A stretch of 64,000 nucleotides of DNA from Clostridia bacterium (GTDB lineage Bacteria; Bacillota; Clostridia; TANB77; CAG-508), in NCBI GenBank assembly GCA_017512025.1, contig JAFWHH010000008.1, positions 258,606-322,605 of the forward strand. Direction: 5' to 3'. This document shows positions 3,809 to 51,160 of the stretch, in pieces. Position 1 is the first letter of the stretch. Every line of letters begins with the position of its first letter. Below the pieces are notes generated by a model. It searched no databases. It had not been told where the DNA came from and saw only the letters and a program-made list of their open reading frames with translations. The position numbers were made by a program, and so were the translations under genes.

Positions 3809-4045
3809 ATGCTGTACGTCTGGTTAGCAGTGCTGTCGGTATTGGTCATCGTATTGATGCTGACAGATTCAAAGCAGATCAAGAAGGCAGCGTGTAGCGC
3901 TGGCGGTCTCGTTATCGCCATTAGTGCGTTTGTGCATTTCTTCCAAGAGTGCACATTCACCGGCCCGGTGATTTCACTGGCTGGTTGCACCGTTGCCGTT
4001 ATTGGTATGACGGCTCTCACAGTCTACCTCTTCGTCAAGAAGTGA
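3809..4045 (+). CDS. Island A: small Cys-containing membrane protein (78 aa, about 3 predicted TM segments), unknown function
   Basis: RBS AAAGGAG lies 8 nt upstream. The sequence is hydrophobic (MLYVWLAVLSVLVIVLML..., GGLVIAISAFVHFF, VAVIGMTALTVYLF). GC is about 47% (28/60 counted over the first 60 nt) against AT-rich flanks. A G5...C5 hairpin plus T8 lies at about 4079-4137. Confidence 0.6.
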   Translation: MLYVWLAVLSVLVIVLMLTDSKQIKKAACSAGGLVIAISAFVHFFQECTFTGPVISLAGCTVAVIGMTALTVYLFVKK

Positions 4046-4207
4046 GTGGATTGATGAGCATTAAGTTATCCGAACACAGGGGGTCTTGCATTAAGAATGT
4101 CTGGTGAAATATCCAGTCTCTTCCCCCTTTTTTTTATGTCAAAATAAATTTATATATATTATTAAGTATTAAAAGCTATCTATTTTCGTAGATAGCTTTT
4201 TTGGTAT

Positions 4208-4242
4208 AAAAAAAGAGGAATGTGCATCACACATTCCCCTCT
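4208..4242 (-). terminator. Rho-independent terminator of island B gene
   Basis: Minus strand reads GAGGGGAATGTG-TGATG-CACATTCCTC followed by T7. Confidence 0.75.
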
Positions 4243-4255
4243 CATGGATATCTCA

Positions 4256-4693
4256 TCATGGTTCCATAATGTCCTCCTCGACATTTTTGTCTTTTTCCTG
4301 ATCAGGAACATATCGAAAGATTATGGTGTTTGGTCTCTTACGAACTCGCAATTTATTTTGAGTTTTCCGAAAACCAGCCTTGCGGACAGTTGAGAACAGC
4401 TTGGCATTCCTTTCTTGTGCTGGAACACCAATTTCAGCTAAGATACCCCTTTGCTCGTAAATCCACTGGGACAATTGATTGAGTGCTTCAACAACTGTCT
4501 CTTGATTTACGACCTTTTTGGCTCCTCGTTTCTCACGTATAATCGATAAGTACATCTTACCATTTTGCTGTACATGAATAACTGCAATCCACTTTTCGTC
4601 CTTTGGACTTAGTGTCCACAGCTCTTCACCGTACCCATCGACATGAGTCCGAGTAATCGCCCAGTTTTCATTGTTAATTCTGGGCTTTTCCAT
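4256..4693 (-). CDS. Island B: hypothetical 145-aa protein with a basic C-terminal region
   Basis: RBS AAAGGAGGG lies 6 nt before the ATG at complement 4691-4693 (MEKPRINNENWAI...). GC-rich relative to flanks. No family recognised. Confidence 0.6.
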   Translation of the reverse strand: MEKPRINNENWAITRTHVDGYGEELWTLSPKDEKWIAVIHVQQNGKMYLSIIREKRGAKKVVNQETVVEALNQLSQWIYEQRGILAEIGVPAQERNAKLFSTVRKAGFRKTQNKLRVRKRPNTIIFRYVPDQEKDKNVEEDIMEP

Positions 4694-4828
4694 GCTCTTC
4701 CCTCCTTTCAAGGAAAGTTCATCTTATTATATCATATATTATGTAAATTTGAAAGCTTTTTATTAAAAATTATCATTTTTTTAGAAATACAGCATATTAT
4801 ATATAAATTACTATGCTGAGGTGTTTTT

Positions 4829-6676
4829 ATGTGTGGATTTACTGGATTTTGTAATTTAAAGAAAAAAATAACTTCTAAAGATAATATTTATAATATGAAT
4901 AGTAGTCTTTCCTATCGTGGACCAGATGATAGTGGTTATTACTATGAAGAAAATGTAGTTCTTGGGCACAATAGATTAGCTGTCGTTGATCCTGCTGGTG
5001 GTATACAACCAATGACCGAAAGAATCTCTGATAATACATATACAATCGTCTATAATGGACAAATATATAATACAAATGAAATTCGTGAGGAGCTTATTCA
5101 AAATGGATTTAAATTTACTACCAAATCAGACACGGAAGTGTTACTAAAAGGATATATATTCTGGAAAAAAGAAATCGTAAATAAAATAAATGGAATATTT
5201 GCTTTTGCAGTATGGGATAGCTCCACTAAAGAATTATTCTTAGCTAGAGATCATTTTGGTGTTAAACCACTATTTTATACCATTATTGATAATACATTGG
5301 TCTTTGCATCAGAAATAAAAGCTCTATTTAAGTATCCTGGTATAAGTCCTATTCTTGATGAACAAAGCATAGCAGAGCTATTTGGTATTGGTCCTGCCAG
5401 AACAAGCGGTACTGCTGTTTTTAAAAATATATATGAGTTGAAGCCAGCAAGTTTTGCAATATTTAATGAATCAGGTTTTCACGTAGAAAAATATTGGAAA
5501 CTTCATTCAAAACCACATACTGATAGCTTAAATCAAACAGCTGATAAAATTAGATTTTTATTAAAAGATTCAATCGAAAGACAACTCGTTTCTGATGTTC
5601 CTTTGTGTGTATTTCTATCTGGTGGTCTAGATTCAAGTATAATTGCCCATTATGCATCTAATAATTATAAAAACAACCATAAGGGACAGCTAAATACTTT
5701 TTCAGTTGATTATATAGATAATGATAAAAACTTTCAGAAAACAGATTTTCAGCCTAATTCAGATAAGTATTATATAAATATCATGTCATCAAAATTAAAT
5801 ACTAATCATCAAACTATATTTTTAGATACCCCTGATTTAGCAAATGCTCTTGAAGATGCAATGCTTGCTCGTGATTATCCAGGTATGGCTGATGTTGATT
5901 CTTCCTTACTTTTATTTTGTAAAGAAGTTAAGAAATATTCAACAGTTTCTCTAACTGGTGAATGTGCTGATGAAATTTTTGGAGGTTATCCATGGTTCTT
6001 TAGAGCTGATAGCTTAAATAGTAAAACATTCCCATGGTCTATTGCAATTGAAGAAAGACAAAATCTTTTAAATTCATCTATCTCTCAAGAAATAAATCTT
6101 AGAGAATATATTGATTATAGATATTTAGAGTCTTTAAAAGAAGTAGAAATATTAGATTCAGATTCAATGGAAACAGCAGAAAAAAGAAAGATTTCCTATC
6201 TTACTCTTAACTGGTTTATGCAAACACTTCTTGATAGGTCAGATAGAATGGCTATGTATAACGGATTTGAAATTAGAGTTCCATTTTGTGATTATAAATT
6301 AGCAGAATACGTATGGAACATTCCATGGGAAATGAAAGCTCTGGGTGGTCGTGAAAAAGGACTACTTCGATATGCCATGAAAGATATTCTTCCTGATGAA
6401 ATAGTTGAACGTAAAAAAAGTCCATATCCTAAAACATGGAATCCAACTTATACAGACTGTGTTAAAAATAAATTATTGGAGATTATGAATAAAGAAAACT
6501 CACCAATTAATTCTTTATTAAATAAAGATAAAATATTAGAAATAATAAATACAAATGGAAAGTCTTTTACAAGACCATGGTTTGGTCAATTAATGACTGG
6601 TCCACAACTTATGGCGTATCTTTGCCAAGTAAATATGTGGCTTGAACATTATAATCCTAGAATTGAACTATCCTAA
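4829..6676 (+). CDS. asnB: Asparagine synthase (glutamine-hydrolysing)
   Basis: N-terminal MCGF (Ntn Cys2) and the SGGLDSS PP-loop. 615 aa. Confidence 0.9.
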   Translation: MCGFTGFCNLKKKITSKDNIYNMNSSLSYRGPDDSGYYYEENVVLGHNRLAVVDPAGGIQPMTERISDNTYTIVYNGQIYNTNEIREELIQNGFKFTTKSDTEVLLKGYIFWKKEIVNKINGIFAFAVWDSSTKELFLARDHFGVKPLFYTIIDNTLVFASEIKALFKYPGISPILDEQSIAELFGIGPARTSGTAVFKNIYELKPASFAIFNESGFHVEKYWKLHSKPHTDSLNQTADKIRFLLKDSIERQLVSDVPLCVFLSGGLDSSIIAHYASNNYKNNHKGQLNTFSVDYIDNDKNFQKTDFQPNSDKYYINIMSSKLNTNHQTIFLDTPDLANALEDAMLARDYPGMADVDSSLLLFCKEVKKYSTVSLTGECADEIFGGYPWFFRADSLNSKTFPWSIAIEERQNLLNSSISQEINLREYIDYRYLESLKEVEILDSDSMETAEKRKISYLTLNWFMQTLLDRSDRMAMYNGFEIRVPFCDYKLAEYVWNIPWEMKALGGREKGLLRYAMKDILPDEIVERKKSPYPKTWNPTYTDCVKNKLLEIMNKENSPINSLLNKDKILEIINTNGKSFTRPWFGQLMTGPQLMAYLCQVNMWLEHYNPRIELS

Positions 6677-49318: not shown

Positions 49319-49448
49319 ACTGTGTATATATTATATCCAAAAGGATGGATTGTCAATACTAAATTTAAGTATTTTTGTGAATTTTTTGTGAAATAAAAAA
49401 ACACCCCTTTCTAATGCTTACATGCATCAAAAAAGGGTATCTTCCGGC

Positions 49449-50167
49449 TTACAGATTTCTTTCGCCGTACGGGTATCCAGCATAAACTACGTTATCCATG
49501 GGAATAATCAGTGCGGGCATATCCTTGATTGTCGAAATAAGGTTTGCATTGAAGCCATCAACGAGTACGTTATTTGCTGTTACTGTTACCGGCTTAATCA
49601 AATATCCATATTGTGCAACATCTTCAAGCATACGCATGTACGAGCCACCTTTTATCTCCCCAATTCGATAATTGACCCATATGCTCCTGGGACTGCTGTC
49701 AGCGAGCCACGCTGCAGGCAAACTTGGTATATCGCCTTTTCTTCTCTTCTCTTGCTTTGCCAAAAGCGCCGCTCTAAACTTTTCCAATAAATCTTGATTC
49801 CCCGTTCTAATTACTTCCTGATATACTTTCAGGAATTCATAAAACTCATCTTCGAACATATTTCCCTTTCGGGAATTACACGCCGTACAAGCCGGCCGCA
49901 AATTGTTCGTAATGGTCGGACCACCAAAGTCCTGCGGAATTAAATGATCCATTGAAATTTTAGAAAAGTACGCCTGGTTATTGCACTGAGTTTCGTGACT
50001 TCTCAGTTTCCGGTGACAGAAATAACATTCATCGTCGCCAAAAATCTTGTATGTAAGTGCATACATAACATCTTTGAAATCACCCTTTTTATAGAGATAG
50101 AGCGTATCACCTTTGACTTCAGCAGAATCACCAATCACAAAGTCATCGCCTGGAAGTAGTATCTCCA
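49449..50167 (-). CDS. Island I: HNH endonuclease domain protein with C-terminal ParB/Srx-like region
   Basis: RBS GGGAGGAA lies 5 nt before the ATG at complement 50165-50167 (MEILLPGDDF...). HNH core CYFCHRKL...DHLIPQDFGGPTITNNLRPACTACNSRKGN. The C-terminal ...LIKPVTVTANNVLVDGFNA resembles a ParB N-terminal fold lacking DGHHR. Clearly GC-richer than the neighbours. Confidence 0.65.
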
Positions 50168-50229
50168 TGTTGATTCCTCCCCTCATCAATGTACTACATT
50201 CATGAATTTTCTACCGCTTCCTAGAAGCA

Positions 50230-50257
50230 ATTTTAACATATAAAAAAGTAGAGTCAA
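50230..50257 (-). promoter_or_regulatory. Promoter of island I (TTGACT-16-TAAAAT) followed by two palindromes
   Basis: Minus strand reads TTGACT (50257-50252) and TAAAAT (50235-50230). Downstream are GCTTCTAGGAAGC and TCATGAATGTA-G-TACATTGATGA. Confidence 0.45.
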
Positions 50258-50271
50258 TAAAAACTTACAAC

Positions 50272-50429
50272 TTGATACATTTTTTACCATGTGGTACAAT
50301 AATAATGTATACAATTTATGTATTGGAGCTTATTCCACGAATTAAGTTATTGAACCAGTTTTACTGGTAGATTGTATACAAACTTAAGGGACTTCGTTCC
50401 CTTAAGTATTTATTTTAGGAGAGTATATT
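50272..50429 (+). promoter_or_regulatory. Promoter plus structured leader with intrinsic terminator upstream of the Thg1-like gene (candidate riboswitch/attenuator)
   Basis: TTGATA (50272-50277), 17-nt spacer, TGgTACAAT (50292-50300). 10-bp P1 TGTATACAAT (50306-15) pairs with ATTGTATACA (50371-80). It encloses hairpins TGGA/TCCA and ACCAGT/ACTGGT. A terminator CTTAAGGGA-6 nt-TCCCTTAAG plus TATTTATTTT lies at 50383-50416, followed by the RBS AGGAGAG. Confidence 0.5.
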
Positions 50430-51113
50430 ATGTGGTATAGTTATTTTTATGAAATTCAGAAAAAATATAGTTTGCGCGTAAGTACAAAAAATCCTCTTGT
50501 TATAAGATTAGATGGAAAGAATGCTACCAAAACAAGAAAAAATGATTTTATTAATAATTATAGTGGCTCATTCCTTAATTCTATGGAAAACTGTGCAAAA
50601 TATTTCAGTGGGAAATATAATTGTTATGCACTATTTGGATCTGATGAAATAAGCTTTATTTTTCCAACTCCATCTGTTGTTATCGATGATTTGGATAAAG
50701 AGCATTGTAATTTTTCGCAAGAAGTATGCTCACTTTTTTCACAGTATTACTTTGATTATTTTAATTTAAATTATCCTGCGGAAAAAATATTTTGGCATGC
50801 AAAATGTTTTAGTATAAATAAAGATAAAATTAATTCATATTTACGACATAGATCTCGTATCATTTCAAATGTACTAACTACTTTCTTTTTAATAAAAAAT
50901 CAATCATATCATGAAGAAAAAGATACTTTAACAGAGCGTTTGGATAAATGTAAAAAACTAGATAACTACTCAGCTTTAGAAGATGTTTTGGATGGAATCC
51001 TATATTATAATGGTAAACGAATTGATTTAAACTCATTCCTTGATGGAAAGGTCGTAGAAATACAATCACCTGAAACTGATACAAACTTAACAATAGATCT
51101 TTTAGATTTTTAA
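50430..51113 (+). CDS. Thg1-like protein (tRNA-His guanylyltransferase family, 3'-5' nucleotidyl transferase)
   Basis: PLVIRLDGKNATK and ALFGSDEISFIF match the Thg1/TLP metal-binding motifs (R-x-DG-x-x-F and G-x-SDE-x-S). Size of 227 aa fits. Confidence 0.65.
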   Translation: MWYSYFYEIQKKYSLRVSTKNPLVIRLDGKNATKTRKNDFINNYSGSFLNSMENCAKYFSGKYNCYALFGSDEISFIFPTPSVVIDDLDKEHCNFSQEVCSLFSQYYFDYFNLNYPAEKIFWHAKCFSINKDKINSYLRHRSRIISNVLTTFFLIKNQSYHEEKDTLTERLDKCKKLDNYSALEDVLDGILYYNGKRIDLNSFLDGKVVEIQSPETDTNLTIDLLDF

Positions 51114-51160
51114 AAATAAAAAGACAGATTTATAAAACCTGTCTTTTTTTGTACTTAATT

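What the first reader, a model, noticed from the sequence alone, without database searches (positions are those of the whole stretch)
49341..51113. Divergent pair of an HNH+ParB-like nuclease and a Thg1-like 3'-5' polymerase, separated by a structured RNA leader
A GC-rich gene encodes an HNH nuclease (CYFCHRKL...DHL...NNLRPACTACNSRK) fused to a ParB/Srx-like C-terminal region. Between hrcA and fmt it lies head-to-head with an AT-rich gene whose product carries the Thg1/TLP catalytic motifs (RLDGK..., GSDEISF).

The 260-bp divergent region holds two promoters, two palindromic operator-like sites and a structured RNA of about 110 nt.

Bacterial Thg1-like proteins are rare template-dependent 3'-5' polymerases, normally discussed for tRNA 5'-end repair. 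A reverse-direction polymerase next to a nuclease and a dedicated structured RNA resembles polymerase plus ncRNA plus effector defence modules such as retrons and DRT systems. To my knowledge that arrangement has not been described for Thg1-like enzymes.

The compositional mismatch between the two genes argues that the nuclease arrived later, so the linkage may be accidental.
Basis: partly seen in the sequence, partly recalled or inferred. Interest (0 to 1): 0.7.

Follow-up and report, generated by a model that had tools for sequence, protein, structure and literature searches.

The report
Conserved leader RNA of Thg1-like polymerase
The nuclease and the reverse-direction (Thg1-like) polymerase are only chance neighbours, but the RNA in front of the polymerase gene is a real, apparently undescribed structured RNA that precedes this polymerase in every gut Clostridia genome examined, which gives a testable handle on what bacterial 3'-5' polymerases do.

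Summary
The sequence features are real. There is an HNH endonuclease gene (49449-50168, minus strand) and a divergent Thg1-like (TLP) gene (50430-51113, plus strand). A 261-bp spacer between them holds two promoter-like sites and a structured RNA.

The proposed three-part defence module does not hold:
- None of 35 species-representative TLP loci has the HNH gene within 4 kb.
- Relatives at the same fmt/hrcA locus carry TLP only, HNH only, or both.
- HNH homologues also sit alone in unrelated housekeeping contexts.
- HNH has its own promoter and terminator and an atypical GC content.

The TLP-RNA link is very strong. A 75-nt three-stem RNA (50306-50380), followed by a hairpin, lies directly upstream of every complete TLP gene of this clade. 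That covers the window, 33 of 35 species representatives (the other two contigs are cut off upstream) and all 7 true metagenome hits. It was never found elsewhere.
- 15 of 20 base pairs show compensatory changes.
- There is no Rfam match and no literature link was found.
- An extended -10 promoter sits 5-6 nt before stem P1, so the transcript should begin at the base of P1.

Best reading: a new TLP-specific cis-regulatory leader, possibly sensing TLP itself. A stand-alone substrate or partner RNA is not excluded.

The parts
50272..50300 (+). Promoter of the TLP leader: TTGATA, 17 nt, TGgTACAAT (extended -10).
   Evidence: scores it 10/12 with a TG. An equivalent TGnTAnnnT box lies 3-9 nt upstream of P1 in 34/34 loci, and 5-6 nt upstream in 27/34. 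The transcription start is therefore inferred at about 50306-50308.
50306..50380 (+). Conserved structured RNA (the 'TLP leader'). Stems are P1 50306-50315 with 50371-50380, P2 50324-50327 with 50334-50337, and P3 50353-50358 with 50364-50369. The conserved unpaired blocks are (A/U)GUAU and CGAA flanking P2, and AUUxUAGAA before P3.
   Evidence: The covariance model R1 scores it 82.9 bits, E=1e-14, and it is the only hit in the 64-kb window. 93.9% of pair cells are paired, and 15/20 pairs carry compensatory changes. There is no Rfam match.
50382..50417 (+). Terminator-like hairpin (10 bp, 4 G-C pairs, 6-nt loop) followed by AUUUAUUUUA. It is the presumed expression platform.
   Evidence: Found. 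A hairpin follows the RNA in 34/34 loci, but only 13/34 have at least 5 U in the next 9 nt.
50417..50423 (+). Ribosome-binding site AGGAGAG of the TLP gene.
   Evidence: Read directly from the sequence.
50430..51113 (+). Thg1-like protein (TLP) gene, 227 aa, belonging to a divergent gut-Clostridia clade.
   Evidence: Pfam PF04446, 36.9 bits. The clade profile hits 4KGK at E=2.3e-12. D28, D72 and E73 are invariant. Only 96 representatives reach E<=1e-3 out of 1.84 billion proteins.
51118..51148 (.). Hairpin flanked by A and T runs between the convergent TLP and fmt genes, probably a bidirectional terminator.
   Evidence: One search lists it on the minus strand. A-run and T-run flank it on both sides (sequence read).
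49449..50168 (-). Free-standing HNH endonuclease gene (239 aa from the ATG at 50168). It is not part of the TLP unit and is GC-rich relative to its surroundings.
   Evidence: The AlphaFold model has pLDDT 92.9, and only the HNH core matches PDB structures.
50230..50257 (-). The HNH gene's own promoter-like site: TTGACT, 16 nt, TAAAAT with TG.
50183..50205 (-). Palindrome or hairpin in the HNH 5' UTR, next to its ribosome-binding site.
   Evidence: I3. It is conserved in L001 and L053.
49398..49443 (-). The HNH gene's own intrinsic terminator, upstream of the hrcA promoter (49356-49328).

Best explanation
The HNH gene and the Thg1-like (TLP) gene are unrelated neighbours.

**HNH.** It is a self-contained cassette with its own promoter, gene and terminator. 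It is compositionally foreign and sits just upstream of hrcA in some relatives and elsewhere in others.

**The functional unit.** This is the TLP gene plus its conserved 5' leader RNA.
- Transcription starts from an extended -10 promoter, so the first transcribed nucleotides form the base of stem P1 (inferred from spacing).
- The RNA folds into a P1/P2/P3 junction with invariant unpaired nucleotides (shown by covariation).
- The GUA and GAA blocks flanking P2 fit a loop-E / bulged-G module (inferred from my own knowledge of that motif).
- A stable hairpin, often with a U-run, follows and precedes the ribosome-binding site.

**Proposed mechanism.** I propose that the leader acts in cis to set TLP expression. 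It would do so by controlling termination at this hairpin, or access to the ribosome-binding site, in response to a bound factor (inferred).

**Sensed factor.** This is not shown. I favour feedback by TLP itself, at roughly 0.3. TLP is an enzyme that recognises 5' ends of RNA helices, and here it would recognise the 5'-triphosphate end of P1 as a substrate mimic. A small-molecule ligand is about equally possible.
For: **The RNA-TLP link**
- R1 hits once per TLP locus, always just upstream on the gene's strand. There are 38 hits (E 7e-16 to 3e-8) in 402 kb, including the whole window, and 5 more.
- 33 of 35 species representatives carry it. The other two are cut off upstream.
- A pattern scan of metagenomes that ignored genes gave 7 true hits. 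All lie in front of a TLP gene or at a contig end facing outward.
- The viral collection gave no true hit.
- HNH-only loci lack the RNA.

**The structure**
- RNAalifold on a plain MAFFT alignment predicts the same helices.
- 93.9% of pair cells are paired, against at most 43% when partners are slid. 15/20 pairs carry double changes, and 0/500 shuffles reach the observed values.
- Many G-U pairs show the structure is specific to the sense strand.

**The position**
- The order promoter, RNA, hairpin, ribosome-binding site, ATG is conserved.

**HNH independence**
-.
- Divergence of the two genes is discordant: L154 has TLP at 75% identity but HNH at 48%, whereas L001 has 64% and 61%.
Against: - There is no transcript or binding data, and every sequence comes from a metagenome or MAG.
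- I found no conserved alternative (antiterminator) pairing. P1 and the hairpin coexist in the minimum-free-energy fold in 27/34 leaders.
- Only 13/34 leaders have a clear U-run, so termination control is not established for the family.
- Exclusive association with one gene family is unusual for a metabolite riboswitch. It is equally expected for a substrate or partner RNA.
- The covariation counts were made on a model-fitted alignment of related sequences, which leans towards the structure.
Confidence: 0.6

Rival explanations
1. The leader is a classical small-molecule riboswitch, for example sensing a nucleotide or nucleotide derivative tied to TLP chemistry. It would control TLP by termination or by occluding the ribosome-binding site. 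This is a sub-case of cis regulation that differs from my preferred protein feedback.
For: - It is a compact three-stem junction with near-invariant unpaired nucleotides.
- It is followed by a terminator-like hairpin.
- No Rfam family matches, so it would be a new class.
Against: - It was found only in front of one enzyme family, never before transporters or metabolic genes.
- No mutually exclusive expression-platform pairing was detected.
- Some members lack P3 entirely.
Confidence: 0.25
2. The RNA is a stand-alone small RNA of about 100-110 nt, running from the base of P1 to the hairpin. It would be the physiological substrate, template or partner of TLP. TLP would add nucleotides 3'-5' to its 5'-triphosphate end, templated by the strand opposite. 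The polymerase-plus-dedicated-RNA half of the first reader's idea would then survive.
For: - The promoter spacing puts the 5' end at or 1-2 nt inside P1 in 34/34 loci.
- That gives a flush or recessed 5' end on a helix whose 3' strand continues, which is the geometry TLPs use.
- A 5'-triphosphate mimics the activated substrate (PMC6471195, PMC4820378).
- The RNA and TLP are strictly co-inherited and share no other partner.
- Where the hairpin has a U-run, it would release a discrete RNA.
- The natural substrates of bacterial TLPs are unresolved (PMC6471195).
Against: - Every feature is also expected of an ordinary 5' leader.
- The U-run is weak in most members.
- The RNA is always on the gene's strand, 40-105 nt from the ATG.
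- The transcription start is inferred, not mapped.
Confidence: 0.18
3. One reading: HNH nuclease, TLP and RNA form a three-part retron- or DRT-like anti-phage module.
For: The divergent pair recurs in four relatives at the same locus: L001-3, L053, L154 and the window.
Against: - All four belong to one sub-lineage and one syntenic site, where TLP-only and HNH-only alleles also exist.
- 0 of 35 species representatives pair the two genes.
- HNH has separate transcription signals.
- Divergence of the two genes is discordant.
- TLP has no PADLOC hit.
- The neighbours are housekeeping genes, not a defence island.
Confidence: 0.03
4. The conserved inverted repeats are DNA operators for a transcription factor rather than an RNA structure.
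For: The P1 arms and the hairpin appear as palindromes in DNA.
Against: - Pairing is kept through compensatory changes while the sequence varies.
- About 27 pair cells are G-U, which would be C-A mismatches on the other strand.
- The arms are 49 nt apart and enclose further covarying helices.
- The orientation relative to the gene is fixed.
Confidence: 0.02

Closest known systems
Bacterial Thg1-like proteins (TLPs), e.g. Bacillus thuringiensis TLP (PDB 4KGK; PMC3701042, PMC3061083)
   Same: - It has the same fold family, with a Pfam Thg1 match.
- The catalytic Asp and Asp-Glu are conserved.
- It has near full-length profile similarity to 4KGK.
   Different: - It belongs to a small, divergent clade of uncultured gut Clostridia, with 96 representatives at E<=1e-3. 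The single sequence reaches only E=0.032 against the best PDB chain.
- It is always preceded by a conserved structured RNA. I found no such RNA described for other TLPs, and more distant TLPs lack it.
Autoregulatory mRNA leaders that mimic an RNA-binding protein's substrate (ribosomal-protein leaders, the E. coli thrS operator); comparison from my own knowledge
   Same: It is a structured 5' leader found only before the gene of one RNA-binding protein family and co-inherited with it.
   Different: - Binding by TLP is untested.
- The mimic here would be a 5'-triphosphate helix end rather than an anticodon arm or an rRNA site.
- The platform looks like a terminator-like hairpin, not an operator at the ribosome-binding site.
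Transcription-terminating riboswitches
   Same: It has a promoter, a compact junction-type structure with invariant unpaired nucleotides, a terminator-like hairpin, a ribosome-binding site and then the gene.
   Different: - No Rfam family matches.
- It is associated with a single gene family.
- No antiterminator was detected, and the U-run is absent in many members.
- The RNA begins at the transcription start.
Retrons and DRT systems (polymerase plus ncRNA plus effector)
   Same: A nucleic-acid polymerase gene is strictly linked to a dedicated structured RNA encoded just upstream.
   Different: - The polymerase is a Thg1-type 3'-5' enzyme, not a reverse transcriptase.
- There is no conserved effector gene.
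- It sits in a housekeeping context, and TLP has no defence-database hit.
Free-standing HNH (homing-type) endonucleases of phages and mobile elements
   Same: - The HNH gene has an HNH_5 core resembling phage HNH and endonuclease VII families.
- It is a solitary gene with its own signals.
- It shows presence/absence polymorphism and variable intergenic sites.
- Its GC content is atypical.
   Different: - It is chromosomal and intergenic, not within a phage, intron or intein.
- The full-length architecture, with a C-terminal domain possibly of the ParB/Srx fold, was not found in viral contigs.
- Homing activity is untested.

Membership tests
Thg1/TLP 3'-5' polymerase superfamily (PF04446) | Profile match above the curated threshold | tested here: met
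   Pfam Thg1 scores 36.9 bits against a 29.2 cut-off, covering profile positions 9-115 of 130. The PHROG tRNA-His guanylyltransferase family matches at 1.3e-5.
Thg1/TLP 3'-5' polymerase superfamily (PF04446) | Catalytic carboxylates (RxDG Asp; SDE Asp-Glu) conserved | tested here: met
   D28, D72 and E73 are invariant in 23 clade members. They align to RADG and SDEIS of the M. acetivorans TLP structure 5AXK.
Thg1/TLP 3'-5' polymerase superfamily (PF04446) | Near full-length similarity to a solved TLP | tested here: met
   The clade profile matches 4KGK (BtTLP) at E=2.3e-12, residues 7-193 against 9-205. It also matches 5AXK, 3OTB and 7CV1 at about 4e-6.
Thg1/TLP 3'-5' polymerase superfamily (PF04446) | Template-dependent 3'-5' nucleotide addition activity | not testable with these tools
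   This needs an enzyme assay.
HNH endonuclease (PF14279/PF01844) | Profile match and beta-beta-alpha-metal residues with a Cys4 zinc site | tested here: met
   HNH_5 matches at 2.9e-11 and HNH at 6e-8. C48, C51, H75, N89, C94, C97 and N98 are invariant. Foldseek hits HNH nickase and Cas9 HNH domains.
ParB/Srx fold (C-terminal domain of the HNH protein) | Sequence-profile match to ParBc or Srx | tested here: not met
   No Pfam hit at E<=1 for the whole protein or E<=10 for 19 C-terminal domains. The domain profile has no ParB or Srx hit among PDB sequences.
ParB/Srx fold (C-terminal domain of the HNH protein) | Significant structural similarity | tested here: inconclusive
   The domain model has pLDDT 81.6. 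Its top hits are pNOB8 ParB-N, Spo0J and sulfiredoxin, but with E 0.67-9 and TMq 0.40-0.44.
ParB/Srx fold (C-terminal domain of the HNH protein) | Conserved GxxR / DGxHR nucleotide-binding or catalytic motif | tested here: not met
   The equivalent conserved motif is L(L/V)DGFN, with no Arg or His. The comparison with the ParB motif is from my own knowledge.
Retron/DRT-type defence module | Conserved co-location of polymerase, ncRNA and effector gene | tested here: not met
   The RNA is conserved with TLP. No effector is: HNH appears in 0 of 35 loci, and no other family appears in more than 6 of 38 neighbourhoods.
Retron/DRT-type defence module | Reverse transcriptase polymerase, or a match to known defence-system models | tested here: not met
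   TLP has no PADLOC hit, and HNH has only weak domain-level hits (PDC-M01B at 9.5e-6, PtuB at 3.7e-3).
Riboswitch / cis-regulatory leader RNA (as a kind) | Conserved secondary structure supported by covariation | tested here: met
   15 of 20 pairs carry double changes, 93.9% of cells are paired, and 0/500 shuffles reach this. RNAalifold gives independent support.
Riboswitch / cis-regulatory leader RNA (as a kind) | Located between the promoter and the start codon, on the sense strand of a consistent gene | tested here: met
   True of all 34 leaders analysed in detail, and every R1 hit lies directly upstream of a TLP gene on its strand or at a contig end facing outward.
Riboswitch / cis-regulatory leader RNA (as a kind) | Expression platform with ligand-dependent alternative pairing | tested here: inconclusive
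   A hairpin is present in 34/34 leaders, but a U-run in only 13/34. No mutually exclusive fold was found.
Riboswitch / cis-regulatory leader RNA (as a kind) | Specific ligand or protein binding | not testable with these tools
   This needs in-line probing or EMSA.
Any Rfam 15 family | Covariance-model match | tested here: not met
   No match in 50169-50429 in the 4.5-kb scan. The best score in the 156-nt scan is 16.6 bits at E=3.5.
Homing-type free-standing HNH endonuclease | Presence/absence polymorphism at one site, plus varied intergenic sites and atypical composition | tested here: met
Homing-type free-standing HNH endonuclease | Cleavage of the empty allele and copy-in by repair | not testable with these tools
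   This needs a nuclease assay on the L014/L016-type intergenic DNA.

The most novel reading that the evidence does not exclude
The leader is not just a regulator but the natural RNA substrate or partner of this bacterial 3'-5' polymerase. TLP would recognise the 5'-triphosphate end at the base of P1 and add templated nucleotides to it. That would either tune its own expression or make a modified RNA. It would be the first dedicated non-tRNA substrate known for a bacterial Thg1-like enzyme, and a polymerase-plus-cognate-RNA pair outside the reverse transcriptases.
Probability: 0.15. Interest if true: 0.9.

Novelty: new variant of a known kind. Interest (0 to 1): 0.6.

Why it matters
The biological substrates and roles of bacterial and archaeal Thg1-like 3'-5' polymerases remain unresolved (PMC6471195).

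Here one clade of these enzymes, abundant in human and animal gut Clostridia, is always preceded by the same covarying structured RNA. One homologue is indexed in more than 3,500 blocks of the assembly collection. The RNA's predicted 5' end sits on a helix, which is the kind of end these enzymes act on.

This gives a concrete 75-nt object to test for TLP binding, 5' extension or ligand sensing. It also adds an apparently undescribed RNA family. Finally, it removes a tempting but false defence-system reading of the HNH neighbour.

Tried and rejected
- **Rfam.** I scanned the 4.5-kb region and the 156-nt leader at E<=10. Nothing credible matched the leader. The Cyano-2 hit at 49345-49469 (25.8 bits against a gathering score of 40) is a hairpin artefact over the HNH terminator.
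- **PADLOC and NCBIfam.** TLP has no hits. The IscB, Cas9d, PtuB and PDC-M01B hits to the HNH protein cover only the HNH core.
- **Leader peptide.** A 21-codon ORF overlaps the RNA in the window. I rejected it because 1-2 nt indels in the P2 loop and the presence or absence of P3 break any reading frame, and the variation is compensatory.
- **Antiterminator or anti-SD logic.** The hairpin's 5' arm is purine-rich, and 26/34 contain an SD-like tetramer, but I found no consistent alternative pairing.
- **TLP as the tRNA-His G-1 adding enzyme.** The tRNA-His gene next to TLP in L010 and L020 already encodes G-1 opposite C73, so this is not needed there.
- **Phage origin.** No true RNA hit and no full-length HNH homologue were found in IMG/VR.
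- **Literature.** Searches for Thg1 with riboswitch, structured RNA or defence found no prior link. The supplements of PMC8040213 were searched only in part, and those of PMC5737381 are not held.
Full report
**What is in the window.**
- Genes on the minus strand run priA-def-fmt on the high-coordinate side and hrcA-grpE-dnaK-dnaJ on the low-coordinate side.
- Between them lie ORF 49449-50189(-) and ORF 50430-51113(+).
- The minus ORF most likely starts at the ATG at 50168, behind GGGGAGGA. It matches Pfam HNH_5 (2.9e-11) and HNH (6e-8).
- The plus ORF matches Pfam Thg1 above its gathering score, 36.9 against 29.2 bits.
- GC content is 0.417 for HNH (GC3 0.41), 0.266 for the Thg1-like gene (GC3 0.16) and 0.309 for the whole window.
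- The coordinates, the two protein assignments and the composition contrast are therefore confirmed.

**The Thg1-like protein (TLP).**
- As a single sequence it is distant from solved structures. The best hit is 5AXK at E=0.032.
- A profile of 23 clade members hits the Bacillus thuringiensis TLP structure 4KGK at 2.3e-12 over almost the full length. It also hits archaeal TLP and eukaryotic Thg1 at about 4e-6.
- D28 (RLDGK) and D72-E73 (GSDEISF) are invariant. These are the catalytic carboxylates of the family.
- The clade is small: 96 representatives at E<=1e-3 among 1.84 billion proteins.
- It belongs to uncultured gut Clostridia such as Clostridium sp. CAG:245, CAG:465 and CAG:921 and Ca. 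Scatovivens.

**The HNH protein.**
- Thirty-one homologues share invariant C48, C51, H75, N89, C94, C97 and N98.
- The AlphaFold model is confident, with pLDDT 92.9. Only the HNH core finds PDB neighbours.
- The C-terminal 90 residues have no Pfam or PDB sequence match.
- Modelled alone (pLDDT 81.6), this domain's top structural neighbours are pNOB8 ParB-N, Spo0J and sulfiredoxin. E-values are 0.67-9 and TM-scores about 0.4.
- Its conserved motif is LxDGFN, without the Arg or His of ParB-type motifs.
- 'ParB/Srx-like' is therefore a reasonable guess that stays below significance.

**Is the pair a module? No.**
- Relatives at the same fmt/hrcA site show several states. Both genes are present in L001-3, L053 and L154. 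HNH alone is present in L004-6. TLP alone is present in L014/15 and L016/17.
- In the very abundant CAG:245-type species, TLP lies elsewhere, between a sortase region and mutL, with no HNH.
- HNH homologues sit alone after cysS and before mfd, beside ruvA, and after nrdG.
- Among 35 species-representative TLP loci, tblastn finds no HNH within 4 kb.
- Clustering all flanking ORFs of 38 loci finds only TLP shared. The next families, the fmt/hrcA-locus genes, occur in at most 6 loci.
- Divergence is discordant. L154 has TLP at 75% identity and HNH at 48%. L001 has 64% and 61%.
- In the window, HNH has its own promoter-like site (50257-50230) and its own terminator (49443-49398), ahead of the hrcA promoter.
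- Where HNH occurs in this sub-lineage, its constant neighbour is hrcA, not TLP.
- It behaves like a free-standing, possibly homing-type, endonuclease cassette.

**The leader RNA is the real finding.**
- The 133 nt before the ATG fold better than all 200 shuffles, with z=-3.7.
- The same sequence pattern precedes TLP genes at 55-67% protein identity, including in a different genomic context. RNAalifold predicts P1, P2, P3 and a downstream hairpin.
- It is visible upstream of 33 of 35 species-representative TLP genes. The other two contigs are cut off upstream.
- A covariance model (R1: 74 positions, 20 pairs) gives exactly one hit per TLP locus. Every hit lies just upstream on the gene's strand. 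There are 38 hits (54-88 bits) in 402 kb, including the entire window, and 5 further hits.
- On 35 distinct sequences, 93.9% of pair cells are standard pairs, against 25-43% when partners are slid. 15 of 20 pairs show double changes, and no shuffle of 500 reaches any observed measure.
- About 27 G-U cells make the structure specific to the sense strand.
- One caveat applies: this alignment is fitted to the model and the sequences are related.
- As a check that did not depend on genes, an exact-pattern scan of metagenome contigs gave 12 matches. Seven were true model hits (48-79 bits) absent from the seed. All seven lie in front of a TLP gene or at a contig end facing outward.
- More distant TLPs (31-33% identity) lack the RNA.
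- There is no Rfam 15 match, and full-text searches found no paper linking Thg1 or TLP to a riboswitch or structured RNA.

**Anatomy of the RNA in the window.**

| Element | Coordinates |
|---|---|
| Promoter TTGATA, 17 nt, TGgTACAAT | 50272-50300 |
| P1 | 50306-50315 with 50371-50380 |
| P2 | 50324-50327 with 50334-50337 |
| P3 | 50353-50358 with 50364-50369 |
| Hairpin | 50382-50407 |
| U-rich tail AUUUAUUUUA | 50408-50417 |
| Ribosome-binding site | 50417-50423 |
| ATG | 50430 |

- The conserved unpaired blocks are UU, then (A/U)GUAU before P2, CGAA after P2, and AUUxUAGAA before P3.
- The GUA/GAA pair flanking P2 fits a loop-E (bulged-G) module. That reading comes from my own knowledge and was not tested.
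- P3 is absent in seven members.
- An extended -10 box lies 3-9 nt before model position 1 in 34/34 leaders, and 5-6 nt before it in 27/34. The transcript should therefore begin on the first nucleotides of P1.
- A 7-18 bp hairpin follows the RNA within 0-8 nt in 34/34 leaders. Only 13/34 have at least 5 U in the next 9 nt.
- The hairpin's 5' arm is purine-rich. P1 and the hairpin coexist in the predicted fold in 27/34 leaders.

**Interpretation.**
- Shown: a new structured RNA family is strictly tied to this TLP clade, it occupies the 5'-leader position, and HNH is independent of both.
- Inferred: the RNA acts in cis on TLP expression through the hairpin.
- The sensed factor is unknown.
- The RNA precedes only one RNA-end-binding enzyme, and its own 5'-triphosphate end sits on a helix. 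I therefore favour feedback by TLP (about 0.3), with a small-molecule ligand about as likely (0.25).
- The same geometry leaves open that the RNA is a genuine TLP substrate or partner (about 0.15-0.2). TLPs add nucleotides to recessed 5' ends using the opposite strand as template, and a triphosphate end mimics the activated intermediate (PMC4820378, PMC6471195).
- The three-part defence reading is at about 0.03.

**Verdict.**
- Novelty lies in the RNA family and its exclusive link to a 3'-5' polymerase. It is a new variant of the known kind 'structured 5' leader'.
- Interest is 0.6.

Noticed in passing
L049 4170-4195 and L052 4170-4195 (TLP genes of two species representatives): Both TLP genes need a +1 shift at the same codon: TCT CGG A AAA TAT in L049, and ACT CGG T AAA TAC in L052. 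In L052 the zero frame gives CGG TAA. The downstream frame is intact and conserved to the end, and both genes keep the leader RNA. This could be a programmed +1 frameshift at a rare CGG codon, or shared assembly errors.
   Followed up: partly
L014 5636-5785 (also L018 3636-3785 and L015): A 150-nt GC-rich element folds into a very long branched hairpin (-72 kcal/mol, z=-9.9). It occupies the hrcA-TLP spacer exactly where the HNH cassette sits in the window. It has no Rfam match and was not seen in other loci.
   Followed up: partly
L047, L048, L050 (about 4001-5395) and L060 (2095-3497): These loci carry two tandem TLP paralogues (34-40% identity to the window protein). The leader RNA lies only in front of the first copy.
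   Followed up: partly
L010 4913-4990 and L020 2867-2944: A tRNA-His(GUG) gene, followed by a tRNA-Gln gene, lies about 1 kb upstream of the TLP gene in the abundant CAG:245-type species. G-1 is genome-encoded opposite C73, so TLP is not needed to add it there.
   Followed up: partly
window 50183-50205 (-): A palindrome (TCATCAATGTA / TACATTCATGA) in the HNH 5' UTR abuts its ribosome-binding site. It is conserved in L001 and L053 and partly in L004. It may be an autoregulatory operator or an mRNA hairpin of the HNH cassette.
   Followed up: partly
window 49345-49469 (-): A sub-threshold Rfam hit to Cyano-2 RNA (25.8 bits against a gathering score of 40, E=0.002) overlaps the HNH terminator and the region upstream of hrcA. 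The alignment rests on hairpins only and is probably spurious.
   Followed up: no
window 49349-49397, and L014 5535-5590: A conserved stretch upstream of the hrcA promoter holds a repeated TTTGTGAA motif (ttttgtgaattttttgtgaaat). It is shared between the window and HNH-less relatives and marks the left boundary of the HNH cassette. Its function is unknown.
   Followed up: no
L010 5248-5795: Two small ORFs lie between the tRNA genes and the TLP leader in the CAG:245-type species. One is a called 91-aa gene, and the second has no called gene. They were not analysed.
   Followed up: no
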